The notes under the pieces were generated by a model that saw only the letters and a program-made list of their open reading frames with translations, was not told the DNA's origin and made no database searches. The translations under genes and the position numbers were made by a program. A DNA stretch of 24,973 bases from Tubiluchus corallicola (taxonomy: Eukaryota; Animalia; Priapulida), in the NCBI GenBank assembly GCA_030141605.1, contig JAQGDQ010001801.1:1-24973 (forward strand). Reading direction: 5' to 3'. This document shows, in pieces, positions 1 to 23,976 of the stretch (position 1 is its first letter; each line of letters begins with the position of its first letter).

Positions 1-321
1 ATGAAGTACAGCTTTCAGCATGTGGTGCCACTTTGAGTATCAGGTGCATGAGATATTTTGAGCATGAGCGGAGCACACTGAGCATCATCAGAAACCTACA
101 ATGTGAGTTGGTAAAAAAGCCAAATAAGAGCTCGTAATTTATACCAATATTTCATAATGATTTTACATAAATGTTTTTTTTGAAATAAAAATAATTCTAG
201 TTGAGACATGTTTTGTTGATGAATTAATATTGTCACAACTCACCAGAAAAGTCGTCTGCACGTGTGAATATTATTTTTATAAGATTGGTACTTATATAAA
301 TTTCTTTCTTTCTTTTGACAG

Positions 322-733
322 AACCTGCAGAGACTTGTACTTCCTGGAAGAAATGTGAGATTTTGATTTGTCATTATTTTTGAAAGTTGTTTTTTATCTA
401 ATCATTTTAGCGCTTAACAATGCTGGATTATTTGGGTATCTATTAAATTGAAGATCAATCATGATTGCAGTGGTAGGGTTGGCTGTATTGGATGTGTGAT
501 TTAAAGTCTCTAGTTCGAATCCAAGACTGGTTATGTTTTGTTTTTGTAATAGTGGATTTTTTTACTAACAATAGCTAGTGTAGCTCTGAAAACATTATGT
601 TATGTAATTCGAAATGTGAGACATGATTTTTACTATTATCTAACTAATTTTAAAATAGTTAAACTAATTTTTGCTCTTGTTTTTATAGCAGCAGACACAG
701 CCGGTCGCGTAAGCCTAAACTTTGCGCATGGAG
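322..733 (+). pseudogene. Inverted duplicate of two cytoplasmic exons (322-354 and 689-733); paralog or pseudogene 3' end without its own terminal exon
   Basis: Exact mirror of exons 3538-3570 and 3159-3203 with intact splice sites. Upstream exons would lie left of the window. Confidence 0.55.
461..530 (+). mobile_element. Degenerate tRNA-derived SINE-like head (mirror copy at about 3362-3431, minus strand)
   Basis: B-box GTTCGAATCC at 513-522 with an A-box-like TGCAGTGGTAGG about 45 bp upstream. No cloverleaf is evident. Confidence 0.35.
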
Positions 734-905
734 GTAAGAATGAGTCTCTTTTATTGCAGTAATAATTTTGCTAGGTGGCAGCATAGGTTATTTAAACACT
801 CTTATATGTTGCCTCCTCGAGTGAGGGAAATCCTAGTTTTAAACTGCCCATTATTTTGTTATTTTTTTAATTTTGATTAAGTATTGCCTGCTTAGCAAAG
901 TGCTT

Positions 906-2201
906 TGCTAGCCATCAGCACCACCTGGTGTTCACAACATTCAGTATGCTAGCCATCAGCACCACATGGTGTTCACAACATTCAGTATGCTAGCCATCAG
1001 CACCACCTAGTCTTCACAACATTCAGTATGCTAGCCATCAGCACCACATGGTGTTCACAACATTCAGTATGCTAGCCATCAGCACCACCTGGTGTTCACA
1101 ACATTCAGTATGCTAGCCATCAGCACCACCTGGTGTTCACAACATTCAGTATGCTAGCCATCAGCACCACATGGTGTTCACAACATTCAGTATGCTAGCC
1201 ATCAGCACCACCTGGTGTTCACAACATTCAGTATGCTAGCCATCAGCACCACCTGGTGTTCACAACATTCAGTATGCTAGCCATCAGCACCACCTGGTGT
1301 TCACAACATTCAGTATGCTAGCCATCAGCACCACATGGTGTTCACAACATTCAGTATGCTAGCCATCAGCACCACCTGGTGTTCACAACATTCAGTATGC
1401 TAGCCATCAGCACCACCTAGTGTTCACAACATTCAGTATGCTAGCCATCAGCACCACCTAGTGTTCACAACATTCAGTATGCTAGCCATCAGCACCACAT
1501 GGTGTTCACAACATTCAGTATGCTAGCCATCAGCACCACCTAGTGTTCACAACATTCAGTATGCTAGCCATCAGCACCACATGGTGTTCACAACATTCAG
1601 TATGCTAGCCATCAGCACCACCTAGTGTTCACAACATTCAGTATGCTAGCCATCAGCACCACCTGGTGTTCACAACATTCAGTATGCTAGCCATCAGCAC
1701 CACCTAGTGTTCACAACATTCAGTATGCTAGCCATCAGCACCACCTAGTGTTCACAACATTCAGTATGCTAGCCATCAGCACCACCTGGTGTTCACAACA
1801 TTCAGTATGCTAGCCATCAGCACCACCTAGTGTTCACAACATTCAGTATGCTAGCCATCAGCACCACCTGGTGTTCACAACATTCAGTATGCTAGCCATC
1901 AGCACCACCTGGTGTTCACAACATTCAGTATGCTAGCCATCAGCACCACATGGTGTTCACAACGTTCAGTATGCTAGCCATCAGCACCATCTGGTGTTCA
2001 CAACATTCAGTATGCTAGCCATCAGCACCACCTAGTGTTCACAACATTCAGTATGCTAACCATCAGCACCACCTGGTGTTCACAACATTCAGTATGCTAG
2101 CCATCAGCACCACATGGTGTTCACAACGTTCAGTATGCTAGCCATCAGCACCATCTGGTGTTCACAACATTCAGTATGCTAGCCATCAGCACCACCTGGT
2201 G
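906..2201 (+). repeat. 41-bp minisatellite, about 31 copies
   Basis: Unit TGCTAGCCATCAGCACCAC[CTG/ATG/CTA]GTGTTCACAACATTCAGTA, period 41 (907, 948, 989). Confidence 0.97.
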
Positions 2202-2388: not shown

Positions 2389-2435
2389 TCAAATGCAAAG
2401 CATACTTGAAATATTTATGCACTGTTTAGAACTCT
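2389..2435 (-). CDS. Ig-superfamily receptor, putative terminal coding exon (ESSKQCINISSMLCI*)
   Basis: Acceptor cttccttcatttcaaatgttcgcctctAG| at 2437-2436, phase-1 frame ending at TGA 2391-2389, followed by two AATAAA. Summed exons give 1407 nt = 468 aa plus stop. Confidence 0.55.
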
Positions 2436-2463
2436 CTAGAGGCGAACATTTGAAATGAAGGAA

Positions 2464-2972
2464 GGTGCTGATGGCTAGCATACTGAATGTTGTGAACACC
2501 AGGTGGTGCTGATGGCTAGCATATTGAATGTTCTGAACACCATGTGGTCCTGATGGCTAGCATACTGAATGTTGTGAACACCAGGTGGTGCTGATGGCTA
2601 GCATACTGAATGTTGTGAACACCAGGTGGTGCTGATGGCTAGCATACTGAATGTTGTGAACACCAGGTGGTGCTGATGGCTAGCATACTGAATGTTGTGA
2701 ACACCATGTGGTGCTGATGGCTAGCATACTGAATGTTGTGAACACCATGTGGTGCTGATGGCTAGCATACTGAATGTTGTGAACACCAGGTGGTGCTGAT
2801 GGCTAGCATACTGAATGTTGTGAACACCATGTGGTGCTGATGGCTAGCATACTGAATGTTGTGAACACTAAGTGGTGCTGATGGCTAGCATACTGAATGT
2901 TGTGAACACCAGGTGGTGCTGATGGCTAGCATACTGAATGTTCTGAACACCAGGTGGTGCTGATGGCTAGCA
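2464..2972 (-). repeat. Same 41-bp minisatellite inverted, about 12 copies
   Basis: Reverse-complement units, period 41. Confidence 0.97.
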
Positions 2973-3158
2973 AAGCACTTTGCTAAACATAAAATAGCAG
3001 GCAATACTTAATCAAAATTAAAAAAAAAAATAACAAAATAATGGGCAGTTTAAAACTAGGATTTCCTTCACTCGAGGAGGCAACATATAAGAGTGTTTAA
3101 ATAACCTATGCTGCCACCTAGCAAAATTATTACTGCAATAAAAGAGACTCATTCTTAC

Positions 3159-3203
3159 CTCCATGCGCAAAGTTTAGGCTTACGCGACCGGCTGTGTCTG
3201 CTG
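3159..3203 (-). CDS. Ig-superfamily receptor, cytoplasmic mini-exon (SADTAGRVSLNFAHG)
   Basis: Acceptor ttgctcttgtttttatAG|, donor GAG|GTAAGA. 45 nt, phase 1-1, no stop. Confidence 0.72.
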
Positions 3204-3537
3204 CTATAAAAACAAGAGCAAAAATTAGTTTAACTATTTTAAAATTAGTTAGATAATAGTAAAAATCATGTCTCACATTTCGAATTACCTAACATAATGT
3301 TTTCAGAGCTACACTAGCTATTGTTAGTAAAAAAATCCACTATTACAAAAACAAAACATAACCAGTCTTGGATTCGAACTAGAGACTTTAAATCACACAT
3401 CCAATACAGCCAACCCTACCACTGCAATCATGATTGATCTTCAATTTAATAGATACCCAAATAATCCAGCATTGTTAAGCGCTAAAATGATTAGATAAAA
3501 AACAACTTTCAAAAATAATGACAAATCAAAATCTCAC

Positions 3538-3570
3538 ATTTCTTCCAGGAAGTACAAGTCTCTGCAGGTT
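3538..3570 (-). CDS. Ig-superfamily receptor, cytoplasmic mini-exon (KPAETCTSWKK)
   Basis: Strong pyrimidine tract tttctttctttcttttgacAG|, donor T|GTGAGA. 33 nt, phase 1-1, no stop. Confidence 0.7.
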
Positions 3571-3857
3571 CTGTCAAAAGAAAGAAAGAAATTTATATAA
3601 GTACCAATCTTATAAAAATAATATTCACACGTGCAGACGACTTTTCTGGTGAGTTGTGACAATATTAATTCATCAACAAAACATGTCTCAACTAGAATTA
3701 TTTTTATTTCAAAAAAAACATTTATGTAAAATCATTATGAAATATTGGTATAAATTACGAGCTCTTATTTGGCTTTTTTACCAACTCACATTGTAGGTTT
3801 CTGATGATGCTCAGTGTGCTCCGCTCATGCTCAAAATATCTCATGCACCTGATACTC

Positions 3858-4658
3858 AAAGTGGCACCACATGCTGAAAGCTGTACTTCATGTTAAAAGT
3901 GGCACCTCATGCTGAAAGCTGTACTTCATGTTAAAAGTGACACCTCATGCTGAAAGCTGTACCGCATGTTAAAAGTGGCACCTCATGCTGAAAGCTGTAC
4001 CTCTTGTTAAAAGTGGCACCACATGCTGAAAGCTGTACCTCATTTTAAAAGTGGCACCACATGCTGAAAGCTCTACCTCATGTTAAAAGTGACACCACAT
4101 GCTGAAAGCTGTACTTCGTATTAAAAGTGGCACCTCATGCTGAAAGCTGTACTTCGTGTTAAAAGTGGCACCACATGCTGAAAGCTCTACCTCATGTTAA
4201 AAGTGGCACCACGTGCTGAAAGCTCTACCTCATGTTAAACGTGGCACCACATGCTCAAAGTGGCACCTCATGCTGAAAGCTGTACTACGTGTTAAAAGTG
4301 GCACCTCATGCTGAAAGCTGTACCTCATGTTAAAAGTGGCACCACATGCTGAAAGCTAAACCTCATGTTAAAAGTGGCACCTCATGCTGAAAGCTGTACC
4401 TCATGTTAAAAGCGGCACCACATGCTGAAAGCTAAACCTCATGTTAAAAGTGGCACCTCATGCTGAAAGCTGTACCTCATGTTAAAAGCGGCACCACATG
4501 CTGAAAGCTAAACCTCATGTTAAAAGTGGCACCTCATGCTGAAAGCTGTACCTCATGTTAAAAGTGGCACTTCATGCTGAAAGCTGTACTTCATGTTAAA
4601 ATTGGCACCATATGCCGAAAGCTGTACCTCATGTAAAAAGCGGCACCTCATGCTCAAA
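3858..4658. repeat. 38-bp minisatellite (dimer of two related 19-mers), about 21 copies
   Basis: AAAGTGGCACCTCATGCTG + AAAGCTGTACCTCATGTTA, period 38 (3861, 3899, 3937). Confidence 0.95.
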
Positions 4659-4669
4659 ATTACACTTAC

Positions 4670-4792
4670 TGTCACTGGAAAACCATTGCTTTGTTGTGTA
4701 TGCAAACAAGACAAATCCAGCAACAATGATAGCAGCTAACAATGCAGCTATAGAACCAGATACTGCCAAGATTGGTTTAATGAGGGCTAATT
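4670..4792 (-). CDS. Ig-superfamily receptor, transmembrane exon
   Basis: Long T-rich tract then AG| at 4794-4793, donor A|GTAAGT at 4669. 123 nt, phase 1-1, encodes ELALIKPILAVSGSIAALLAAIIVAGFVLFAYTTKQWFSSD. Confidence 0.88.
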
Positions 4793-4833
4793 CTATTAAT
4801 ACAAAACAAAACAAAGCAAAACTTATGTGACTG

Positions 4834-5281
4834 TCTTTAGAATAAGCCACAAACAACTGTGCAACAATTACTCAATAATACTGTGAGAATCTTTAGAATA
4901 AGCCACAAGCAACTGTGCAACAATTACTCAATAATACTGTGAGAATCTTTAGAATAAGCCACAAGCAACTGTGCAACAATTACTCAATAATACTGTGAGA
5001 ATCTTTAGAATAAGCTACAAGCAACTGTGCAACAATTACTCAATAATACTGTGAGAATCTTTAGAATAAGCCACAGACAACTGTGCAACAATTACTCAAT
5101 AATACTGTGAGAATCTTTAGAATAAGCCACAAGCAACTGTGTAAGAATCACTCAATAATACTGTGAGAATCTTTAGAATGAGCTACAAGCAACTGTGCAA
5201 CAATTACTCAATAATACTGTGAGAATCTTTAGAATGAGCCACAAGCAACTGTGCAACAATTACTCAATAATACTGTGAGAA
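4834..5281. repeat. 56-bp minisatellite, 8 copies
   Basis: CTTTAGAATAAGCCACAAGCAACTGTGCAACAATTACTCAATAATACTGTGAGAAT at 4835, 4891, 4947 and onward. Confidence 0.95.
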
Positions 5282-5312
5282 AATCTTGAAGAAAGTAGTT
5301 ACTGACCAGCAC

Positions 5313-6535
5313 AAGTATTTACCTATCAATAACTTACATCATCCTACACAATACAGTACTGTAAACATACTCTGGGTTCGGCATGATCGTATAGTAAGTA
5401 TTTACCTATCAATAACTTACATCATCGTACACAATACAGTACTATAAATATACTCTAGCTTCGGCATGATCGTATAGTAAGTACTTACCTATCAATAACT
5501 CTCATCATCCTACACAATACAGTACTGTAAACATACTCTGGCTTCGGCATGATCGTATAGTAAGTATTTACCTATCAATAACTTACATCATCCTACTCAA
5601 TGCAGTACTATAAATATACTCTAGCTTCGGCATAATCGTATAGTAAGTATTTACCTATCAATAACTCTCATCATCCTACTCAATACAGTACTGTAAACAT
5701 ACTCTGGCTTCGGCATGATCGTATAGTAAGTATTTACCTATCAATAACTTACATCATCCTACGCAATACAGTACTGTAAACATAATCTGGCTTCGGCATG
5801 ATTATATAGTAAGTATTTACCTATCAATAACTTACATCATCCTACTCAATACAGTACTGTAAACATAATCTGGCTTCGGCATGATTATATAGTAAGTATT
5901 TACCTATCAATAACTTACATCATCCTACTCAATGCAGTACTATAAATATACTCTAGCTTCGGCATGATCGTATAGTAAGTACTTACCTATCAATAACTCT
6001 CATCATCCTACTCAATACAGTACTGTAAACATACTCTGGCTTCGGCATGATAATATAGTAAGTATTTACCTATCAATAACTTACATCATCCTACGCAATA
6101 CAGTACTGTAAACATAATCTGGCTTCGGCATGATTATATAGTAAGTATTTACCTATCAATAACTTACATCATCCTACTCAATACAGTACTGTAAACATAA
6201 TCTGGCTTCGGCATGATTATATAGTAAGTATTTACCTATCAATAACTTACATCATCCTACTCAATGCAGTACTATAAATATACTCTAGCTTCGGCATGAT
6301 CGTATAGTAAGTATTTACCTATCAATAACTCTCATCATCCTACTCAATACAGTACTGTAAACATACTCTGGCTTCGGCATGATCGTATAGTAAGTATTTA
6401 CCTATCAATAACTTACATCATCCTACACAATACAGTACTGTAAACATACTCTAGCTTCGGCGTGATCGTATAGTAAGTATTTACCTATCAATAACTTACA
6501 TCATCCTACACAATACAGTACTGTAAACATACTCT
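5313..6535. repeat. 83-bp minisatellite, about 15 copies
   Basis: GTAAGTA recurs at 5394, 5477, 5560 and onward (period 83). Confidence 0.95.
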
Positions 6536-6742
6536 TACCTGGTAACTTTCAATTCTTACTGAGATCAAACAAAAACATTCAACAAATTCCTCTTTTCTAT
6601 ATCTAAATCTCAGCGAAAATAAGTAAAAATATTCAGTCATTCGTTAGCCTAGCATAAAAAAGGTGAACACTGCAATACAAATAAAAGCTTAAAAGTGATT
6701 TGCGTTGCATCAGAGTAGATGCCCGTTTAAAAGAATACTTAC

Positions 6743-7114
6743 CAATTCTTCTAGCACCACGATCCACCTCCACAAGCACTCGGAATTTTTTCATAGCGTT
6801 AAGATTCTTTACAACAAGCCAGTAAGTTCCCGTGTCTCTTTCTCTTGCTGAAACAATGAGAAGTGTTGCGGCATAGCATAGCTCCTCTTTACCACTGCTG
6901 CTGTTCTGAGAGAACACGTAGCGGATGCTGCCAATTATACGACCCTCAAAGTCCATCCGAGAAGTCGTGGGCGTCAGAGTAATCTTCCCGTCTGTCCACT
7001 CCCACCGAACCTCGGTAAACAGTGTCAATGAGCAGAAGTAGGTGGTGACATTGAGTTTGCTGTAAGCAGGTGTATGAAAAGCTGTCTGGCTTCCTGGCAT
7101 TAATTCTGGTTCTT
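6743..7114 (-). CDS. Ig-superfamily receptor, exon for Ig-like domain 3
   Basis: Acceptor tttgcAG| at 7116-7115, donor G|GTAAGT at 6742. 372 nt, phase 1-1: YFCSL..RWEW..LCYAATLLI..DTGTYWLVVKN. Confidence 0.9.
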
Positions 7115-7225
7115 CTGCAAACGTCACAAACTTACAATGTTTTATAAGATGAATATCATCATTTTCATGTTTCTTTGCTCAGTAGCTTGGAACTTTTCAA
7201 ACAACTCTACAATTGAACTTTATCC

Positions 7226-7599
7226 TTGTAACATTTGTAACATTGTTAATCTGTAACATAGTGTGACATAGTTGTAACATTGTTAATCTGTAACATAGTT
7301 GTAACATTTGTAACATTGTTAATCTGTGACATAGTTGTAAAATTGTTAATCTGTAACATAGTTGTAACATTTGTAACATTGTGAATCTGTAACATAGTTG
7401 TAACATTGTTAATCTGTAACATAGTTGTAACACTTGTAACATTGTTAATCTGTAACATAGTTGTAACATTTGTAACATTGTTAATCTGTAACATAGTTGT
7501 AACATTTGTAACATTGTTGATCTGTAACATAGTTGTAACATTTGTAACATTGTTGATCTGTAACATAGTTGTAACATTTGTAACAAATGTGTAACATTT
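7226..7599. repeat. TGTAACA-based compound tandem repeat (36-bp and 27-bp units)
   Basis: CATAGTTGTAACATTTGTAACATTGTTAATCTGTAA repeats, which explain the 12-aa periodic ORFs. Confidence 0.93.
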
Positions 7600-8212
7600 A
7601 GTGAGAAAGAGAAGGCATCCCGTATTACACAATCATCTGATGAAAATGATCAATAATTTATCACTTTTTAATTCAGTATTGCTTTTGTAAGTTTATCACA
7701 CCTGCATTGATGAGTGCCGGTGATCGTTTCGACTACAACTGTCATCATCAACGCTTGAAATCAAGTGAAAAAATCAATACATTTACAGCACATTAACGCA
7801 CAAAATACAGATACAAACACAAAAAAGTGAAATTTAAATTATCAAAAACTAGTGGAAATAACTGGAAAGAGTTTCATACGAAAATGTAAGAAATTGTACC
7901 TCACACAAGAGGCAACGACCACAACTCCAGCAAACAATTCAACATACAATAATATTACAAAGTGCAAAAGTAATTATTGATTGGTGGTGAAAGGGTGGCG
8001 AAAGAACTATAAGTTATCGAGGTCAGCCACCCTCTCAGGATTGTTACTAATATAATTAACTTGTTAATGCGCATGTACCAGGTAATTAAAAATTATCAGA
8101 TTTTGCATTTAAGATGAATGAAAATTGAATTATTATACAAATGTGTTAGTTTATAATAAAATAATGTTCAATAATGGGAAAGAAGGACACACGTGACCAT
8201 CTTTAAATATCA

Positions 8213-8677
8213 CCGTATTTTCCCATGTATAAGAGACCCTTTTTGGCTCAGAATTTTCACTTTAAAAATAGGGGGTCTCTTATACATGGGAGTAAGTCTC
8301 CGACTCCAATCTGACACCAACTAGCAAGGTAAGAAAGCCAACCCTTGGAGAAGTCTGCAGCTGGGTCCTCAAGGCATGGAATGGTGTAAAGCCAGAGGTC
8401 ATTATTAAATCTTTCAAGAAGTGTGGCATCTCCAATGCCATGGACGGCACAGAGGACAATGCCATTTTTGAGCAGAGTGACTCCTCTGATGATGAACTGG
8501 CTCGAATTGCTGAAGGTCTGACTCCAGTTGATATTTTTGATGAGAGTGATGAGGAATTTAATGATTTCTATGATGAATAAAGTTATTCATTACCAAAAAA
8601 CTTTTTTCCAGAATTTTTGCCTAAAAATTGAAGGGGTCTCTTATACACAAGGGTCTCTTATACATGGGAAAATACGG
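8213..8677 (+). mobile_element. Non-autonomous pogo/Tigger-like DNA transposon, copy 1 (465 bp)
   Basis: 27-bp TIRs CCGTATTTTCCCATGTATAAGAGACCC, flanks CA/TA. Internal transposase C-terminal remnant KPTLGEVCSWVLKAWNGVKPEVIIKSFKKCGISNAMDGTED plus acidic tail. Confidence 0.9.
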
Positions 8678-9109
8678 TAATTTAACCATTACATATTTAA
8701 AATTAATGTTATGAGGACCTAGAGCCAAAGGAAGAAAAAATTAATTTTCCGCTTGCAGCTAGCAAAAGTGGATAAACATGTAAGTTTAGTTATGAAAAAA
8801 AGAGTTGAAAGAAAAGTATCTTAAAATTCTTTAGGATTAGCGTCCATTATTGCAACATCTACATAATGGGAGAAACTTGTTATGACAGTAATGAGTATTA
8901 AGAGAATGAATTGGTTGTTGAGTCATAAATGTATTGAATATTGATTTTGGTTTGATTTCTAACATTGATAATAACAGATATTGTTGTAATGATTATCTGC
9001 AGTTTGTACACGCCATAGGAACTGATTCTTTCATATATTTAAGAAGCTAGAGCAGCGGAACATTGAAAACAAACACTTGTGGCAGGAACGGTACCTAATC
9101 ATTACATAC

Positions 9110-9457
9110 CTGACTCAGCCACTAAAAGACCGACTGTAAGGTTCTTTTCACCATCCCCGTTTGCCACTGATAATGAGTAGTTCCCCGAGTCAGTGAGCTC
9201 TGATGAGCTAATCGATAACGTTGCACTGTAGCAATCATTTGCAGTGCTGTTAGTCACAATGCTCGCTGCAATGCGATCCTCAAATGACCCCTGTGTTTTC
9301 GAGTGTGTGAGGTTTATCTGACCGTTGGACCATGTCCATCTGGCTTGTATATACTCGGGTAGCGAACAGAAGTAAAGAGTCAAAATAATGCTTTCACCAA
9401 CGTAACATTTGTATTCTGTTTTAGTATCCCGCCAAACTCTTATCGTGTTACTTCCTG
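9110..9457 (-). CDS. Ig-superfamily receptor, exon for Ig-like domain 2
   Basis: NAGNAG acceptor tttttCAG|CAG (start 9457 or 9454), donor G|GTATGT at 9109. 348 nt, phase 1-1: GESIILTLYFCSLP..RWTW..DCYSATLSI..DSGNYSLSVAN. Confidence 0.9.
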
Positions 9458-9836
9458 CTGAAAAATACGAATCAATACTTTTTGCTATTGATCAACATAT
9501 TTAAATATTGGTCAAGGGCAGGACTACAACTTTTTGGAAGCCCTTAGGTTAATGAAATTACAGAGCCCCCTTAGATGGAGCTACCCTTTAATTCGCACGA
9601 ACACGTCTCAAGTATTTCTTTTACTCTTGACATATTTTAGCGACAATTACATAGCTTGAAGGAAGACCATTGCAAGTTTTATAAATAAACTGGAATAATT
9701 ATGTTTTTATGTCAATAAAAATGTTGTTTAAGAAATGGCACCATTTTAGTAATTAGTGCAATAAATTGTTGCAGTATCAAATTAGTATGAATTTTAACAC
9801 AGCTGTAGTGAAAAAGAGACTTTACACTAACTTACA

Positions 9837-11269
9837 CTATGCTTGCACGTGTGTTTCTATGCTTGCATGTGTGTCTCTATGCTTGCCTGTGTGTTTCTAT
9901 ACTTGCATGTGTTTCTATGCTTGCATGTGTGTTTCTATGCTTGCATGTGTGTCTCTATGCTTGCATGTGTGTTTCTATGCTTGCACGTGTGTCTCTGTGC
10001 TTGCATGTGTGTTTCTATGTTTGCATGTGTGTCTCTGTGCTTGCACGTGTGTCTCTACGCTTGCCTGTGTGTTTCTATGCTTGCATGTGTGTCTCTATGC
10101 TTGCATGTGTGTCTCTATGCTTGCATGTGTGTCTCTGTGCTTGCATTTGTGTTTCTATGCTTGCATGTGTGTCTCTGTGCTTGCACATGTGTCTCTATGC
10201 TTGCACGTGTGTCTCTATGCTTGCATGTGTTTCTATGCATGCATGTGTGTCTCTGTGCTTGCACATGTGTCTCTATGCTTGCACGTGTGTCTCTGTGCTT
10301 GCACATGTGTCTCTATGCTTGCACGTGTGTTTCTATGCTTGCATGTGTGTCTCTGTGCTTGCACGTGTGTTTCTATGCTTGCATGTGTGTCTCTATGCTT
10401 GCCTGTGTGTTTCTATGCTTGCATGTGTGTCTCTATGCTTGCATGTGTGTTTCTATGCTTGCATGTGTGTCTCTATGCTTGCATGTGTGTCTCTGTGCTT
10501 GCATTTGTGTTTCTATGCTTGCATGTGTGTCTCTGTGCTTGCACATGTGTCTCTATGCTTGCACGTGTGTCTCTATGCTTGCATGTGTTTCTATGCATGC
10601 ATGTGTGTCTCTGTGCTTGCACATGTGTCTCTATGCTTGCAGTGTGTTCTTGCTTCACTGTGTCTCTATGCTTGCATGTTCTATGCTTGCATGTGTGTCT
10701 CTATGCTTGCAGTGTGTTTCTATGCTTGCATGTGTCTCTATGCTTGCATGTGTGTTTCTATGCATGCACGTGTGTCCCTATGCTTGCATGTGTGTCCCTA
10801 TACTTGCATGTGTGTCTCTATGCTTGCATGTGTGTTTCTATGCTTGCATGTGTGTTTCTATGCTTGCATGTGTGTTTCTATGCTTGCATGTGTGTTTCTA
10901 TGCTTGCATGTGTGTTTCTATGCTTGCATGTGTGTCCCTATGCTTGTATGTGTGTTTCTATGCTTGCATGTGTGTTTCTATGCTTGCATGTGTGTTTCTA
11001 TGCTTGCATGTGTGTTTCTATGTTTGCATGTGTGTTTCTATGCTTGCATGTGTGTTTCTATGCTCGCATGTGTGTCTCTATGCTTGCACGTGTGTTTCTA
11101 TGCTTGCAAGTGTGTTTCTATGCTTGCATGTGTCCCTATGCTTGCATGTGTGTTTCTATGCTTGCATGTGTGTTTCTATGCTTGCATGTGTGTTTCTATG
11201 CTTGCATTTGTGTCTTTATGCTTGCATGTGTGTTTCTATGCTCGCATGTGTGTTTCTATGCTTGCATGT
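9837..11269. repeat. 20-bp minisatellite, about 70 copies
   Basis: CTATGCTTGCATGTGTGT[T/C]T units, stop-free in all + frames. Confidence 0.97.
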
Positions 11270-11746
11270 CTGTATTATTATATGGCTAGTATACGTCCAG
11301 TTGAGCTTTGGTAGCATTTAGTAAAAAGTTTTTTTTTTCATTAAAGTTGTATTGAAGTGTCTGCCAATGTGATACAAAATTGTGGTATTTCTTAAAGAAT
11401 ATTTTTATTGACAAACAAAAGACAGCCATTCTGGTTTATTTAAAGAATTTACAAGTAGGTTCACTTCAAATTATGTAAATGTCGCGAGTAAAATATATCA
11501 GGAGCAAAAATATTTAAAAATTCAAGACGTGTGGGGTCGAGTTAGAGGGTGACCCCGTCTACAAGGACCCCAAAATTTCATGCGCTTGCAGACACCAAAA
11601 GATCACTACATGGCCCTGCTCACAGCATTTACTGAGCCCAGCAAAAACCACTTTATACTCTGAAGAGGCCCTGTACCAGTCTTCACTTGTTGCCAAGCAT
11701 TCTAACCACTAAGCTATTTCCTTTGCCTACACACTAACCGTCTTAC

Positions 11747-12115
11747 CTTTGCTTATATTGGTTAAGCGGCCATTTGCGGGAGCAAGATGGACGCTGACAT
11801 TAAATCTAGTCCACGTATTGTTCGCCTTCACTAACAACGAATAGACTTTTGCATCCGTGGCCGAGATTGAATGTAACAGCAGAGTGGCCATGTAGCAGAA
11901 CTTGCCGAAATCGAGAGCTAGTCGTGTGAGTGGTGCGATGCCGGTCCTAACGGGTGTTGCCATGGTAACGGCGGCTCTTACATCCGCATGATTTTTCCAC
12001 TGCCACTTTACGCCACTGACATTGTGCTCGCCGCAAAAACGCAGCGAAATGTTGAGGTCCTCGCCGAGTACCCCTTCAAATGATATTTTGCTGTTTGGAA
12101 TCAGCACCGGTTTAC
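11747..12115 (-). CDS. Ig-superfamily receptor, exon for Ig-like domain 1
   Basis: Acceptor tttatttgcAG| at 12117-12116, donor G|GTAAGA at 11746. 369 nt, phase 1-1, open frame: GEDLNISLRFC..KWQW..CYMATLLL..D..VYSLLV. Confidence 0.88.
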
Positions 12116-12506
12116 CTGCAAATAAATAAATTTGAAAACACAAATAAATAAAATAAATGAATAAAATCAAAACTTTTCATGACAATTTTTTTACTTTTGC
12201 TCACAGCCATCTTTCATTTGGTCAAGAACATTTTTTTACCTATTCGAAGCACTAAAATGGTGCATATTCTATTATTCTGTTCTAAAAATGGATTAGTGGA
12301 CTAAACAGTGCACTTATTATAATGTTCTTGACACTCAACTGACTACATACTAAATTCTTGCTTATGTATCAAGCAGGATATAGTTGCGGATTCATAACAT
12401 GAAATTATCTCAAGGTCACTCCATGCAGGGCTTCGCTTTCACTACCCAGTGTTTAACTACTAACTGCCTATATATAGGATTCAACATTAGGGACAGAGAA
12501 ACTGCT

Positions 12507-13913
12507 AACATGTTGTTGATGCTAGATGTTGATAAACATGTTGTTGATGCTAGATGTTGATAAACATGTTATTGATGCTAGATGTTGATAAACATGTTAT
12601 TGATGCTAGATGTTGATAAACATGTTGTTGATGCTAGATGTTGATAAACATGTTGTTGATGCTAGATGTTGATAAACATGTTGTTGATGCTAGATGTTGA
12701 TAAACATGTTGTTGATGCTAGATATTGATAAACATGTTATTGATGCTAGATGTTGATAAACATGTTATTGATGCTAGATGTTGATAAACATGTTATTGAT
12801 GCTAGATGTTGATAAACATGTTGTTGATGCTAGATGTTGATAAACATGTTGTTGATGCTAGATGTTGATAAACATGTTATTGATGCTAGATGTTGATAAA
12901 CATGTTATTGATGCTAGATGTTGATAAACATGTTATTGATGCTAGATGTTGATAAACATGTTGTTGATGCTAGATGTTGATAAACATGTTGTTGATGCTA
13001 GATGTTGATAAACATGTTATTGATGCTAGATGTTGATAAACATGTTATTGATGCTAGATGTTGATAAACATGTTGTTGATGCTAGATGTTGATAAACATG
13101 TTATTGATGCTAGATGTTGATAAACATGTTATTGATGCTAGATGTTGATAAACATGTTGTTGATGCTAGATGTTGATAAACATTTTGTTGATGCTAGATG
13201 TTGATAAACATGTTGTTGATGCTAGATGTTGATAAACATGTTGTTGATGCTAGATGTTGATAAACATGTTGTTGATGCTAGATGTTGATAAACATGTTGT
13301 TGATGCTAGATGTTGATAAACATGTTGTTGATGTTAGATGTTGATAAACATGTTGTTGATGCTAGATGTTGATAAACATGTTGTTGATGATGCTAGATGT
13401 TGATAAACATTTTGTTGATGCTAGATGTTGATAAACATGTTATTGATGCTAGATGTTGATAAACATGTTGTTGATGCTAGATGTTGATAAACATGTTATT
13501 GATGCTAGATGTTGATAAACATGTTGTTGATGCTAGATGTTGATAAACATGTTATTGATGCTAGACGTTGATAAACATGTTATTGATGCTAGATGTTGAT
13601 AAACATGTTATTGATGCTAGATGTTGATAAACATGTTGTTGATGCTAGATGTTGATAAACATGTTGTTGATGATGCTAGATGTTGATAAACATGTTGTTG
13701 ATGCTAGATGTTGATAAACATGTTGTTGATACTTGATGTTGATAAACATGTTGTTGATGCTAGATGTTGATAAACATGTTGTTGATGCTAGATGTTGATA
13801 AACATGTTATTGATGCTAGACGTTGATAAACATGTTATTGATGCTAGATGTTGATAAACTGTTATTGATGCTAGATGTTGATAAACATGTTATTGATGCT
13901 AGATGTTGATAAA
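12507..13913. repeat. 28-bp minisatellite, about 50 copies
   Basis: AACATGTT[G/A]TTGATGCTAGATGTTGATA, period 28 (12507, 12535). Confidence 0.97.
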
Positions 13914-14119
13914 AAAGACAAGTGGTTTCAAGCAAACAGAAAGAAATTAATCAGCCGAAACATAAGTAAAACTCACAAGACATTTAATTTATGTGATTCA
14001 AGCAGCACTGATTTTTGTCTCAGAAATGCGTCTCAAATCTTTTATATTACTCGGGAAATCCTGGTTTTGTTTAATGACGTTTAGCTTGACGGCGCGTTTT
14101 GCTGAAATCCCTTAAACTA

Positions 14120-14513
14120 CCGTATTTTCCCATGTATAAGAGACCCTTTTTTGCTCAGAATTTTCACTTTAAAAATAGGGGGTCTCTTATACATGGGAGT
14201 AAGCCAACCCTTGGAGAAGTCTGCAGCTGGGTCCTCAAGGCATGGAATGGTGTAAAGCCAGAGGTCATTATTAAATCTTTCAAGAAGTGTGGCATCTCCA
14301 ATGCCATGGACGGCACAGAGGACAATGCCATTTTTGAGCAGAGTGACTCCTCTGATGATGAACTGGCTGGAATTGCTGAAGGTCTGACTCCAGTTGATAT
14401 TTTTGATGAGAGTGATGAGGAATTTAATGATTTCTACTTTTTTCCAGAATTTTTGCCTAAAAATTGAAGGGGTCTCTTATACACAAGGGTCTCTTATACA
14501 TGGGAAAATAAGG
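14120..14513 (+). mobile_element. Non-autonomous pogo/Tigger-like DNA transposon, copy 2 (394 bp)
   Basis: Same TIRs as copy 1 (one mismatch at the 3' end), TA on both sides, near-identical interior with 41-bp and 30-bp deletions. Confidence 0.9.
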
Positions 14514-15564
14514 TAATTTTGCTGGAATGCCTTAACTAATTTTGCTGGAATGCCTTAACTAGTTTTGCTGGAATGCCTTAACTAGTTTTGCTGGAATGCC
14601 TTAACTAATTTTGCTGGAATCCCTTAACTAGTTTTGCTGGAATGCCTTAACTAATTTTGCTGCAATGCCTTAACTAATTTTGCTGGAATGCCTTAACTAG
14701 TTTTGCTGGAATGCCTTAACTAATTTTGCTGGAATGCCTTAAACTAATTTTGCTGAAATGCCTTAACTAATTTTGCTGGAATGCCTTAACTAATTTTGCT
14801 GGAATGCCTTAACTAATTTTGCTGAAATGCCTTAACTAATTTTGCTGGAATGCCTTAACTAATTTTGCTGGAATGCCTTAACTAATTTTGCTGCAATGCC
14901 TTAACTAATTTTGCTGAAATGCCTTAACTAATTTTACTGAAATGCCTTAACTAATTTTACTGAAATGCCTTAAACTAATTTTACTGGAATGCCTTAACTA
15001 ATTTTACTGAAATGCCTTAACTAATTTTACTGGAATGCCTTAACTAATTTTGCTGGAATGCCTTAACTAATTTTGCTGGAATGCCTTAACTAATTTTGCT
15101 GCAATGCCTTAACTAATTTTACTGAAATGCCTTAACTAATTTTACTGGAATGCCTTAACTAATTTTACTGAAATGCCTTAACTAATTTTACTGGAATGCC
15201 TTAACTAATTTTGCTGCAATGCCTTAACTAATTTTACTGGAATGCCTTAACTAATTTTGCTGCAATGCCTTAACTAATTTTGCTGAAATGCCTTAACTAA
15301 TTTTACTGGAATGCCTTAACTAATTTTACTGAAATGCCTTAACTAATTTTACTGAAATGCCTTAACTAATTTTACTGGAATGCCTTAACTAATTTTGCTG
15401 CAATGCCTTAGCTAATTTTGCTGCAATGCCTTAACTAATTTTGCTGCAATGCCTTAACTAATTTTGCTGCAATGCCTTAACTAATTTTGCTGGAATCCCT
15501 TAAGTAATTTTGCTGGAATGCCTTAACTAATTTTGCTGGAATCCCTTAACTAATTTTGCTGGAA
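14514..15564. repeat. 23-bp minisatellite, about 45 copies (first unit at 14097-14119, split by the transposon)
   Basis: TTTTGCTGGAATGCCTTAACTAA units. Confidence 0.96.
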
Positions 15565-15814
15565 CGCATTATTAACTCCTTTCCAACAGGTAGATACATC
15601 ATCTGTGATGGCTAAACACTTTGTGCTCTTCAAATTTGATGAAATTTGGAGAAAAATAACTAACATACAATAAAATTATATGAAAACAAAAAAGTTGTGT
15701 TGTTATCTTTGTTTTCACTCTTTAAAAGAATATTTTCTAATGGACAAAAATTTTGCTTTGTGCTTATACAGCAATTCAGTGCATCAGTGACATTGATCTG
15801 CCTTGTGCTGATTA

Positions 15815-15949
15815 GCTAGGCTACTGTCAGCAATGGCTAGGCTACTGTCAGCAATGGCTAGGCTACTGTCAGCAATGGCTAGGCTACTGTCAGCAATGGC
15901 TAGGCTACTGTCAGCAATGGCTAGGCTACTGTCAGCAATGGCTAGGCTA
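15815..15949. repeat. 21-bp minisatellite, about 6 copies
   Basis: GCTAGGCTACTGTCAGCAATG units. Confidence 0.93.
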
Positions 15950-16415
15950 TTGCTGTCCACTCCAAACTAACTTTTATTGTCATCATCCGGGCGTGTGTTC
16001 ACAGAATGTGACAGCAGCAAGCACTGGTCACTGTCCAGTGCACATGAGCTCTACGAGCTCTACTCTGAACAGACTTGATGTTGTTTTGCTTCTGAATGTA
16101 CAAAATGCCTTTGAATGCAGGAAAACGAAAAAAAGTTACAATGTTTTGGGATATTTCTTTAATATTTGGTGTAATTTCACAGTTGGACTTATCACTTGGA
16201 CAGTTGGACTTATCACTTGGGCAGTAATGAGTTACATGATTACAATCGGATACTTTCTGTTTGTTTCACTTATTAGCAGTACTGCATGTATGCTAGCAAA
16301 TATTAAGCCTTTGCAAAATCTCTTGGAAGTAGACCAATGTTCATAAAAAATATTAATGGCCACTATCTTACTATACAATTACTGATCATTAAGGAAGTGC
16401 TGGCTGTCAATTAAC

Positions 16416-16938
16416 CACACCAGTGGCTGGTTGATAACTACCTGCTGCCAGCAGAGGGCAGACACACCAGTGGCTGGTTGATAACTACCTGCTGCCAGCA
16501 GAGGGCAAACACACCAGTGGCTGGTTGATAACTACCTGCTGCCAGCAGAGGGCAGACACACCAGTGGCTGGTTGATAACTACCTGCTGCCAGCAGAGGGC
16601 AGACACACCAGCGGCTGGTTGATAACTACCTGCTGCCAGCAGAGGGCAGACACACCAGCAGCTGGTTGATAACTACCTGCTGCCAGCAGAGGGCAGACAC
16701 ACCAGTGGCTGGTTGATAACTACCTGCTGCCAGCAGAGGGCAGACACACCAGTGGCTGGTTGATAACTACCTGCTGCCAGCAGAGGGCAGACACACCAGT
16801 GGCTGGTTGATAACTACCTGCTGCCAGCAGAGGGCAGACCCACCAATGGCTGGTTGATAACTACCTGCTGCCAGCAGAGGGCAGACCCACCAGTGGCTGG
16901 TTGATAACTACCTGCTGCCAGCAGAGGGCAGACACACC
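16416..16938. repeat. 47-bp GC-rich minisatellite, 11 copies, each with a CTCF-consensus motif
   Basis: CACACCAGTGGCTGGTTGATAACTACCTGCTGCCAGCAGAGGGCAGA, period 47. Confidence 0.95.
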
Positions 16939-17391
16939 GCGGCAAGTGTTGCAATTCTAGCACAAATTTCATAATGCCTGAGCGCATCTAAACAGCTGTC
17001 AAATGTACAAACTTTAATTGATCTGAACACTTTTTGTGAAATTTTATGCAGAAATAAATACTTTACAATATTTATGTTGAACAGTTTTAGATACAAGCTG
17101 TCACTTGAAAGCTGGGAAGGTTTAATATAAAAAAAATTCGAATTATCCTATTAATAACACCACTGAGTAAAAAAATCTAAACTTTAAATTTACAATGCTA
17201 GAAAAAAAGTGTCTTCAGAAAATATAATAAGGTATGCACTAGTATCTCACACATGTAAGCTGTTATGGGCAGCTTTATTTGGGGATGTCAAAACTTTACA
17301 AATATTCATCATCGTAAACAAGTTAAGTTAATGGAAATAAATAAATTTACTATTTACTAATATTTACTCATTTAAGCAAGAACTCACAGTA

Positions 17392-17718
17392 CAGTCAACC
17401 CTCGTTAAACCGGATTAATTGGTGGGGGTGGGGTGGTCCGGTTCAGCCGATTGTCCGATTTATCCGATATGCTTATATATGATCTATATTATACACGAAT
17501 AATCACCTTAATAAGGCCTATATACATTGCACTATATACTATACTGTATATTACTTTAAAATAGTTAGCCTGTGAGGATAAAGAAATTATTGTACAGTTG
17601 GTAGGTCGTGTTGTGTTTAGCGCTCTGGCTCGGATGGAAATCGGTCAGTCTACCACGGATGACGTCCGTCTTATCCGATATCCGGGCTAACGGGGTCCGG
17701 TTTAACGAGGGTCGACTG
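17392..17718. mobile_element. Tc1/mariner-pogo type MITE (327 bp)
   Basis: 23-bp TIRs CAGTC[A/G]ACCCTCGTTAAACCGGA with TA on both sides. Confidence 0.9.
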
Positions 17719-17806
17719 TATCTATGAATGCGTTTCGGAAATGATTAAAATAATGAAGCTTTACTATAAAAGCTATTAGAAAAGTTTTGTCTCGTATTAA
17801 ACTTAC

Positions 17807-17876
17807 CAGATATTGCAATGAAAGATACGCTGGTAATGAAAACCGAGATCCGCAAAAATATTACATAATTCTTCAT
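17807..17876 (-). CDS. Ig-superfamily receptor, coding exon 1 (signal peptide)
   Basis: ATG at 17876 gives MKNYVIFLRISVFITSVSFIAIS+G (basic N-terminus, hydrophobic core). It ends at the consensus donor G|GTAAGT (17806-17801), phase 1, matching the next exon. Confidence 0.8.
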
Positions 17877-21868: not shown

Positions 21869-22239
21869 TAAGGGGTGAGCATTCTCCATCAGAAAATGAT
21901 TTGAATCTAATCGAATTTTCCACTTTCGAATTTTAATCAAACCGAATTACGAGAATTAAATTCTGTGTCAAAGATTTCCAAATTATTAATTTTCAAAAAC
22001 TCTGTCTCACGAAGGTTATGCATATTGCTTGATTTTATTCTACAGTAAAAACATCAATAATTTGTTTGAAAATTGTTCTGATTGGACGGTGTTTCAAACG
22101 TTTAAATGATAAAAAAATTTTGTAGTTGAAATGGAAAATTAATTGAATCAAAATTTTAGATGCAAATTTAATTCGAATTAGGAAAATTGGTTCGAATTCG
22201 ATGTGGCTATTCGACCTTGAAAGTTCGATGCTCACCCTG
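21869..22239. mobile_element. hAT-type MITE, family A copy 1
   Basis: TIR core AGGGGTGAGCAT / ATGCTCACCCTG, 8-bp TSD GCAATCAT/GCGATCAT, TTCGAA-rich subterminal motifs. Confidence 0.75.
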
Positions 22240-22346
22240 GCGATCATGCATAAATGAACAATAAATTAGAGTCAGCTAGAACAGGTAAATTAAAGTGAAT
22301 CAATCTTTATCTTAAAACAGCAGAACACAACACTCATGACACTTAC

Positions 22347-22516: not shown

Positions 22517-22965
22517 AAGGGGCGGAACTAGGGGGAGCGAGGGGGGCACGCACCCCCCTTGTCAAAATTTGCACCCCCCAGCGAAATCGGACAAATAATT
22601 TTTTGCAGTGAAAATTGCAGTTCGCATGTAATCATTTTCGATATGAATTTGAATTAGATAAAAAAATGTTTGGTAGCTTCAGTGTATTATTTTCTTAAAA
22701 CTTGTGTGTGATAAATTTCTGTAAATAACAATTTAGTTAGAGGCACATTAATAACGTTAGGTTAACTGAGAGTTCATTTTCTCATTATTGCTCTGTCCGC
22801 TACGCCGTCCTACACACATGCTAATTATAGGCCTGCATGCAGTATAAAAGGGCTTAAAATTGGCTTAACCATTATTTAACCACTTCGGATACCTCACCCC
22901 CCCCCCCCCCCCCAGAAAGTTTTTGCGCCCCCCCCCCCTGCTTGCCACATCTAGTTCCGGCCCTG
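22517..22965. mobile_element. hAT-type MITE, family B
   Basis: TIRs AAGGGGCGGAACTAG / CTAGTTCCGGCCCTG, 8-bp TSD ATTTAGAG/AATTAGAG, G/C-run subtermini. Confidence 0.8.
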
Positions 22966-23004
22966 AATTAGAGAATATTAAAATAAATTGCACGTTAATT
23001 CAAA

Positions 23005-23463: not shown

Positions 23464-23517
23464 TACAAATAGGTGACAGTCAGACATCATTATAGCACTC
23501 CCCTTTATAATGTCAGC

Positions 23518-23932
23518 TAGGGGTGAGCATCGAATGTTCGAGTTTGAAGGCTTGAATCAAATTCGAACGAGTTTTTTTTAGTTCAAATTCGATTCGAACC
23601 TAAAACTATAAATTCAAATAATTCAGCATTTCAATCACATACGTTCTTTATCATTAAAGTGAATGAAACTATTAGCATAATTTAGCTGTGATTTCTGTGC
23701 ACAATTTTACACAAGTTATTGGTGGTTTTACTGCAGAATAAAATCCCGTAACATGCACGATCTTTGTAAGACTAATTTTTACTGGTGGTTCGAAAACATG
23801 TTCGAAAATCTTTCGTTCTCGATTTGAATTTGATTCGGATTTGAAACACCGCAGTTTGGTTTGACTGGAATTCGAAAGTCACAAGTTCGAGTCGATTTGA
23901 ATTCGTTTTCTGGTGGGGAATGCTCACCCCTA
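23518..23932. mobile_element. hAT-type MITE, family A copy 2 (inverted relative to copy 1)
   Basis: 13-bp TIRs TAGGGGTGAGCAT / ATGCTCACCCCTA. Its 3' end is homologous to the 5' end of 21869-22239. TSD decayed (5/8). Confidence 0.8.
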
Positions 23933-23976
23933 AAGCCAACCTCACTTAGTACCCAAACTGTAAGCAAAATAAGCTG

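What the first reader, a model, noticed from the sequence alone, without database searches (positions are those of the whole stretch)
2389..17876. Hidden receptor whose ectodomain is three tandem non-canonical Ig domains
Seen: all three domains share FC (end of strand B), W-x-W, CY-x-ATL (strand E) and D-x-x-x-Y-x-L-x-V with Leu in place of the canonical F-strand Cys, and carry about 11 N-x-S/T sequons. This implies a B-E rather than B-F disulfide (inference). From memory, not a search, the pattern and the post-TM FAYTTKQWF resemble the single membrane-proximal domain and juxtamembrane motif of arthropod Fasciclin-3-like proteins. An ectodomain built only from three such domains would be an unusual architecture. 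With local duplication, it is a candidate lineage-specific adhesion or recognition (possibly allorecognition) family.
Basis: partly seen in the sequence, partly recalled or inferred. Interest (0 to 1): 0.8.

Follow-up and report, generated by a model that had tools for sequence, protein, structure and literature searches.

The report
Triple-staple Ig cell-surface receptor
This invertebrate gene carries three intact exons for an unusual immunoglobulin-type domain that other animals mostly use once, next to the membrane; they are likely spliced in a row into a sugar-coated cell-surface protein that likely works in cell adhesion, which is a new layout of known parts rather than a new kind of system.

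Summary
Eight minus-strand exons with strong GT-AG sites give an open 468-aa frame: signal-like start, three Ig domains (22-32% identical), one TM helix, short Tyr-free tail. All named motifs and 11 ectodomain sequons are present (4 expected). D1 and D3 fold as Ig domains. Both canonical cysteines are gone; a new pair sits in register on neighbouring strands B and E, predicted as a surface in-sheet disulfide (distance not measured). The domain is not new: it is the single membrane-proximal module of spider 'Kirre/IrreC-like' proteins, a Priapulus protein and unnamed proteins; a profile made without the window scores the domains 50-90 bits. No Fasciclin-3-named protein came up. Three copies alone were not seen elsewhere (one unnamed protein has two), but the search was shallow. 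The 'local duplication' is an inverted near-copy of the gene's 3' end that looks like a second haplotype or assembly fold-back. Nothing supports allorecognition. No junction is confirmed by RNA, and any subset of the domain exons keeps the frame, so either/or splicing stays open. Verdict: new variant of a known kind, likely an adhesion receptor; interest 0.4.

The parts
17807..17876 (-). Exon 1: ATG and hydrophobic signal-peptide-like segment (aa 1-23)
   Evidence: hydropathy 1.6-2.1 in windows starting aa 3-12; donor top 0.2%; no SignalP-type test run
11747..12115 (-). Exon 2: Ig domain D1 (aa 24-146), Cys51/Cys97, 5 sequons, flexible 12-aa tail
   Evidence: 50 bits with window-free profile; pLDDT 80.4; Z 13.0, rmsd 2.1, 99 aligned, Dscam Ig
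9110..9457 (-). Exon 3: Ig domain D2 (aa 147-262), Cys177/Cys222 plus an unpaired Cys164 on strand A', 4 sequons
   Evidence: I-set E 0.001, below cut-off; 90 bits; not folded
6743..7114 (-). Exon 4: Ig domain D3 (aa 263-386), Cys290/Cys342, 2 sequons
   Evidence: 70 bits; pLDDT 94.4; Z 13.8, rmsd 1.5, 95 aligned, NCAM2 Ig
6539..6558 (-). Candidate 20-nt micro-exon; its inclusion would shift the frame and end the protein before the TM helix (394 aa)
   Evidence: (acceptor top 3.5%, donor top 0.1%); unconfirmed, abuts a tandem array
4670..4792 (-). Exon 5: transmembrane helix and FAYTTKQWF (aa 387-427)
   Evidence: (hydropathy peak 2.53)
3538..3570 (-). Exon 6: cytoplasmic (aa 428-438)
   Evidence: acceptor top 0.1%
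3159..3203 (-). Exon 7: cytoplasmic (aa 439-453)
2389..2435 (-). Exon 8: predicted last coding exon, stop at 2389, AATAAA near 2363; least certain exon
   Evidence: acceptor top 6.8%
1..2201 (+). Inverted near-copy of 2464-3891 (copies of exons 6 and 7 and the 41-bp array); likely second haplotype or assembly fold-back, possibly a recent real duplication

Best explanation
A type I membrane glycoprotein whose three Ig exons are likely spliced in a row, built by tandem duplication of a membrane-proximal Ig module that is widespread in invertebrate IgSF proteins, and which likely acts as a cell-adhesion or cell-recognition molecule. Shown: exon structure, open frame, family membership of the domains, sequon excess. 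Predicted: Ig fold (D1, D3) and an in-sheet B-E disulfide on the outer face of the ABED sheet in place of the buried B-F bond. Inferred: glycans on strand B and the disulfide cover the ABED face, leaving the GFC face of the outer domain for binding in trans, as Kirrels and nectins bind through their first domain; the odd Cys164 could tie two chains into a cis dimer; the 50-aa tail without Tyr would anchor rather than signal through SH2 partners. The parent's canonical outer domains would have been lost, so copies of the former stalk domain took over the binding end.
For: Open 468-aa frame, seven phase-1 introns with strong sites. Sequons 11 against 4.0 expected, 1 of 5000 shuffles, which points to selection as a surface protein. 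A profile from the 13 outside rows scores D2 90, D3 70, D1 50 bits; one from 8 rows of arthropod-type and Priapulus proteins 73, 49, 41 bits. In 9 of 9 distinct relatives checked that have a TM helix the module ends a few residues before it. Strand register: D3 B 20-28 and E 76-86 pair Cys27 with Cys79; D1 B 20-28 and E 72-80 pair Cys27 with Cys73; both cysteines are present in 15 of 16 aligned domains and are lost together in the 16th. One unnamed protein (P0009) holds two copies in one frame (98 and 29 bits), so tandem use exists. Kirrels bind through the first Ig domain (PMC10084454, passages); FasIII is homophilic (PMC3915571, passages).
Against: No junction is confirmed by a transcript. 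All 7 non-empty subsets of the three domain exons keep the frame. Adhesion is argued from architecture and from relatives whose names are automatic annotations, not tested functions. The tree does not resolve the three domains as one clade (not rejected, p-AU 0.065). The last exon sits beside a fold-back, so the true tail may be longer.
Confidence: 0.6

Rival explanations
1. The three domain exons are cassette or mutually exclusive exons: signal exon + one domain + TM gives three single-domain receptors with very different surfaces (221-229 aa), or a set of one- to three-domain forms.
For: All are phase 1-1 and every subset is in frame. The family norm is one copy directly before the TM helix: 0 of 32 held proteins with a domain of 60 bits or more have a second one that strong; Priapulus LOC106810513 has one domain plus TM. 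D1 ends in a flexible 12-aa tail that could serve as a stalk. Earlier unchecked notes report many such exon arrays in this genome (leads only).
Against: One exon per domain in phase 1 is the usual layout of constitutive IgSF genes (own knowledge). Introns of 2289 and 1995 nt between the domain exons do not force exclusion. P0009 has two copies in one frame.
Confidence: 0.17
2. A ligand or microbe-binding immune receptor with a secreted decoy form made by the 20-nt micro-exon.
For: Micro-exon 6558-6539 has strong sites and would stop the protein at 394 aa before the TM helix. A shrimp three-Ig protein similar to FasIII binds a virus (PMC6380602, passages).
Against: The micro-exon's donor abuts an 83-bp tandem array and may be chance; the product could be an NMD target. 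The tail has no signalling tyrosine.
Confidence: 0.1
3. A member of a clustered, highly polymorphic allorecognition family, like Hydractinia Alr.
For: Divergent Ig domains without the canonical disulfide and with an in-sheet one also occur in Alr proteins (PMC9546547, passages). An unnamed protein (P0006) is the nearest relative of D1 and D3 and may be a paralogue or from a related species. Two upstream candidate exons may end another receptor gene; the likeness to exon 7 is weak (16 of 19 nt, 5 of 200 shuffles, 1 of 4 exons tested, not seen at protein level).
Against: No Tyr, hence no ITIM or ITAM, in the predicted tail after the juxtamembrane motif. No Fn3-like domain. In run X1 contigs covering 335 of the 348 bases of exon 3 show no difference from the window, at depths 156 and 174 against 83.5 for a split allele elsewhere, which reads as two like alleles (depth is a rough guide and X1 may be the source sample). 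No fourth domain exon in the window. The inverted copy holds no ectodomain exon inside the window.
Confidence: 0.08
4. A decaying or mis-joined gene: the exons belong to more than one gene or the 3' end is wrong.
For: The sequence folds back at 2201 in a 41-bp array; the last exon is short and unconserved.
Against: No stop or frameshift in 1407 nt, intact splice sites, conserved core and sequon excess; only one signal exon and one TM exon were found.
Confidence: 0.05

Closest known systems
Arthropod five-domain IgSF proteins annotated 'kin of IRRE-like 1/2', 'irregular chiasm C-roughest', 'syg-1-like' (e.g. GFS72601.1, XP_042903906.1, CAL1280843.1)
   Same: Same membrane-proximal Ig module with FC, W-x-W, CY and no F-strand Cys (24-33% identity); similar basic-aromatic motif after the TM helix (K-W/C-C-F in 6 of 9 relatives checked, K-Q-W-F here)
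   Different: They carry one copy behind four canonical Ig domains; here there are three copies and no canonical domain, and the motif lacks the Cys
Priapulus caudatus LOC106810513 (XP_014669378.1)
   Same: One such domain plus TM; 27% identity to D2 over 89 aa, E 4e-11 for the pair
   Different: Single domain, keeps an F-strand Cys, no closer to the window than arthropod rows; not an evident orthologue
Drosophila Fasciclin 3 and Fas3-like proteins
   Same: Ig ectodomain, one TM helix, homophilic adhesion (PMC3915571 passages); that its third domain is this module is recalled, from no call
   Different: No Fas3-named sequence was returned; Fas3's outer domains are recalled as of another type
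Hydractinia Alr proteins (PMC9546547, passages)
   Same: Ig-type domains lacking the B-F bond; predicted disulfides between neighbouring strands, including B-E in the Fn3-like domain
   Different: Alr: V + I + Fn3-like layout, six invariant Cys, ITAM/ITIM tails, large polymorphic cluster; none shown here
Siglec V-set domain
   Same: Intra-sheet disulfide in an Ig domain (PMC9875244, one passage; that it links B and E is recalled)
   Different: No sequence kinship found; in Siglecs the canonical B Cys is kept (recalled), here the Cys lies 3 residues later

Membership tests
Immunoglobulin superfamily (V-frame I/V-set) | A/A' B C (C' C'') D E F G sandwich | tested here: met
   D3 and D1 models; Z 13.8 and 13.0 to I-set domains; Atlas features 0.95 to Ig clusters for D2, D3. 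D2 was not folded
Immunoglobulin superfamily (V-frame I/V-set) | C-strand Trp and D-x-x-x-Y corner before strand F | tested here: met
   3 of 3 domains
Immunoglobulin superfamily (V-frame I/V-set) | Canonical B-F disulfide (absent in some members) | tested here: not met
   Leu at the F position in 3 of 3; Leu, Leu, Thr at the canonical B position
Unnamed membrane-proximal FC...CY Ig module of invertebrate IgSF proteins | Profile match over the whole domain | tested here: met
   50-90 bits with a profile built without window rows; the rows were first found with the window's own profile, so the test is not fully independent
Unnamed membrane-proximal FC...CY Ig module of invertebrate IgSF proteins | Cys pair on strands B and E | tested here: met
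   register only, distance not obtained
Unnamed membrane-proximal FC...CY Ig module of invertebrate IgSF proteins | One copy, directly before the TM helix | tested here: not met
   three copies; only D3 is membrane-proximal in the model
Kirrel/Kirre/SYG-1 | Five Ig domains, invariant architecture (PMC10084454) | tested here: not met
   three domains, none canonical
Kirrel/Kirre/SYG-1 | C-terminal PDZ-binding motif | tested here: inconclusive
   predicted end L-C-I is hydrophobic, but the last exon is uncertain
Fasciclin 3 | Sequence orthology to Fas3 | not testable with these tools
   no Fas3 sequence was returned by any search
Fasciclin 3 | Homophilic adhesion | not testable with these tools
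   needs cell aggregation assay
Alr-type allorecognition proteins | ITAM or ITIM in the tail (many members) | tested here: not met
   no Tyr in the predicted tail after FAY; true tail may be longer
Alr-type allorecognition proteins | Fn3-like domain before the TM helix, six invariant Cys | tested here: not met
   D3 is a V-frame Ig domain with two Cys
Alr-type allorecognition proteins | Extreme allelic polymorphism and paralogue cluster | tested here: inconclusive
   one sample without differences in exon 3; no genome held for a paralogue search

The most novel reading that the evidence does not exclude
One gene holds three ancient, swappable exons for a surface-stapled Ig domain and splices them either/or (or in combinations, plus a secreted form), giving a small menu of recognition receptors built from what is elsewhere a mere stalk domain, as part of a lineage-specific receptor family.
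Probability: 0.17. Interest if true: 0.65.

Novelty: new variant of a known kind. Interest (0 to 1): 0.4.

Why it matters
It shows a stalk-type Ig module turned into a whole ectodomain, and it draws attention to a widespread invertebrate Ig subtype with a predicted surface B-E disulfide. The window's three copies reach no Pfam cut-off and my ten paper searches did not find the module described as a family, though subscription papers are outside that library. Repeating an Ig domain is routine in IgSF evolution, so the surprise is moderate. It would rise if the exons prove swappable or the gene proves polymorphic and clustered.

Tried and rejected
RNA: no RNA holder listed; the one RNA-guess run X8 laid nothing on two stretches, which is no evidence either way. 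Run X3 left most of exon 3 and all of 2975-3850 uncovered; a hole proves nothing. Whole genome: none held, so no paralogue search. Word-indexed homologue search with the three-domain alignment, longer proteins: 0 hits among 7996 candidates; with the 16-row alignment 9 of 7993 longer and 2 of 408 near-length candidates. Metagenome contigs: no locus for D3 (0 of 390 pattern matches) or D2 (0 of 115). PDB by sequence: only generic matches to the E-G half of titin, Dscam and similar domains; no solved member of this module was listed in fold searches, which does not exclude one. D1 homodimer prediction: no verdict, score 0.00, alignment not used. Trees: unresolved with long branches. Earlier findings near this place or like D2/D3: none. 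Papers opened without use: PMC2116432 (0 passages found), PMC8353475 (3 passages), PMC2200178 (abstract and references), PMC12051499 (6 passages; gives the canonical B and F anchors). Rejected: that the long Cys-rich ORFs at 9757-11321 are genes (they are a 20-bp tandem array); that the inverted copy is a paralogue. The offset check had an off-by-one pattern; the register was taken instead.
Full report
Gene model. The window is animal-like genomic DNA with long intronic tandem arrays. On the minus strand eight exons (17876-17807, 12115-11747, 9457-9110, 7114-6743, 4792-4670, 3570-3538, 3203-3159, 2435-2389) join into 1407 nt with one stop at the end, 468 aa; all seven introns are GT-AG and phase 1. 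All 14 splice sites fall in the top 9% of their kind under a rough matrix. The protein has a hydrophobic start, three domains each on one exon, one TM helix and a tail of about 50 residues without tyrosine. The organism was not identified here; unchecked earlier notes on the same genome call it a likely priapulid.

The domains. Pfam gives only sub-threshold Ig hits for D2 and D3 and none for D1. AlphaFold models D3 at pLDDT 94.4 with strands A, A', B, C, C', C'', D, E, F, G and D1 at 80.4 with a poorly defined C-D region; both match I-set domains at Z 13-14, with many rows tied, so the fold names no partner. D2 was not folded. The 11 ectodomain sequons exceed the 4.0 expected (1 of 5000 shuffles).

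The cysteines. In the profile alignment to titin the family's B-strand Cys lies three residues after the canonical Cys position, and the E-strand Cys five before the conserved Leu. From the strand limits in the models, B and E pair so that the two cysteines are direct cross-strand neighbours (27 and 79 in D3; 27 and 73 in D1). The odd offsets imply both point away from the core; this is inference from Ig geometry, and no distance could be read. Both are kept in 15 of 16 aligned domains and lost together in one. In-sheet disulfides have precedent in Siglec-8 (PMC9875244, one passage) and are predicted in Alr domains (PMC9546547, passages). D2 has a third Cys on strand A', leaving an odd total of seven in the ectodomain.

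Relatives. An HMM search of 1.84 billion representatives gave 173 hits at E 0.001 or better, 150 listed; most are generic matches to the E-G half of long multi-Ig proteins, and 13 proteins carry this module or a near form over most of its length. Named ones are spider 'kin of IRRE-like', 'irregular chiasm C-roughest' or 'syg-1-like' proteins and Priapulus LOC106810513. In the full-length spider proteins four canonical Ig domains precede one copy of the module, which ends just before the TM helix. Profiles built without the window rows recover all three domains and nothing else in the window's six frames. Of 180 proteins held, 32 have a domain of 60 bits or more and none has two that strong; these include near-identical cluster members and fragments, and single-exon fragments cannot show tandem arrays, so rarity is suggested, not shown. 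P0009 has a second, weaker copy next to the first (29 bits, with FC and CY). The nearest single rows are unnamed (P0006 39% to D3; P0014 38% to D2). One clade for D1-D3 is neither shown nor rejected. No protein named Fasciclin 3 was returned.

The duplication. Bases 1-2201 are an inverted copy of 2464-3891. The unique arms differ by two substitutions and two short indels in about 900 bases, and the 41-bp array has 31.6 against 12.4 copies. In DNA run X1 the contigs over this region have depth 139-142, against 156-174 for unique sequence near exon 3 and 83.5 for a split allele; X1 and X2 contigs mix letters of both arms (my reading). This fits two haplotypes joined by a fold-back better than two loci. 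Contig depth is only a rough guide, and a recent or polymorphic real duplication is not excluded. Either way it is no evidence for a gene family, and it leaves the last exon in some doubt.

How it likely works. Best reading (0.6): a constitutively spliced three-domain adhesion or recognition molecule, a glycan-coated rod that would bind through the open face of its outer domain, with a short anchoring tail. This rests on architecture and on how Kirrels, nectins and FasIII act (PMC10084454, PMC3915571; passages), not on a test. Against it: no transcript confirms a junction, and all seven subsets of domain exons are in frame, so either/or splicing stays open (0.17). An immune receptor with a secreted form (0.10), allorecognition (0.08) and a broken or mis-joined gene (0.05) have less support.

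Verdict. Real gene, accurately described; known module in an unusual layout; new variant of a known kind; interest 0.4. Supplements of the papers were not opened; the domain drawings in the supplement of PMC6380602 might bear on the Fas3 comparison.

Noticed in passing
window 22444-22347 and 21730-21657, minus strand: Two candidate exons with good acceptors (top 3.7% and 0.4%) upstream of the gene, probably the 3' end of another gene. One reading of the second has a Y-x-x-L motif and ends like exon 7 of this gene (16 of 19 nt; 5 of 200 shuffles); frames and donors are uncertain.
   Followed up: partly
window 1-2201 against 2464-3891: Fold-back at a 41-bp tandem array with a 262-nt unique spacer; likely haplotype join or assembly artefact.
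   Followed up: yes
window 6539-6558, minus strand: Candidate 20-nt micro-exon with strong sites that would give a TM-less product.
   Followed up: partly
window about 8208-8680 and 14120-14510: Two copies of a short element with a DDE_1 transposase remnant (Pfam E 0.01-0.02, below cut-off), very high depth in runs X1, X3 and X5: a deleted pogo-like transposon.
   Followed up: partly
window about 21870-22240, 22520-22970, 23515-23935: Segments bounded by inverted termini, MITE-like; seen by eye only.
   Followed up: no
introns throughout: Minisatellite arrays with units of 20-83 bp fill much of the introns and create long spurious ORFs.
   Followed up: yes
P0014 and P0009 (unnamed proteins): P0014 joins EGF repeats to this module; P0009 has two copies before a TM helix. 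The module appears to be shuffled into several layouts.
   Followed up: partly
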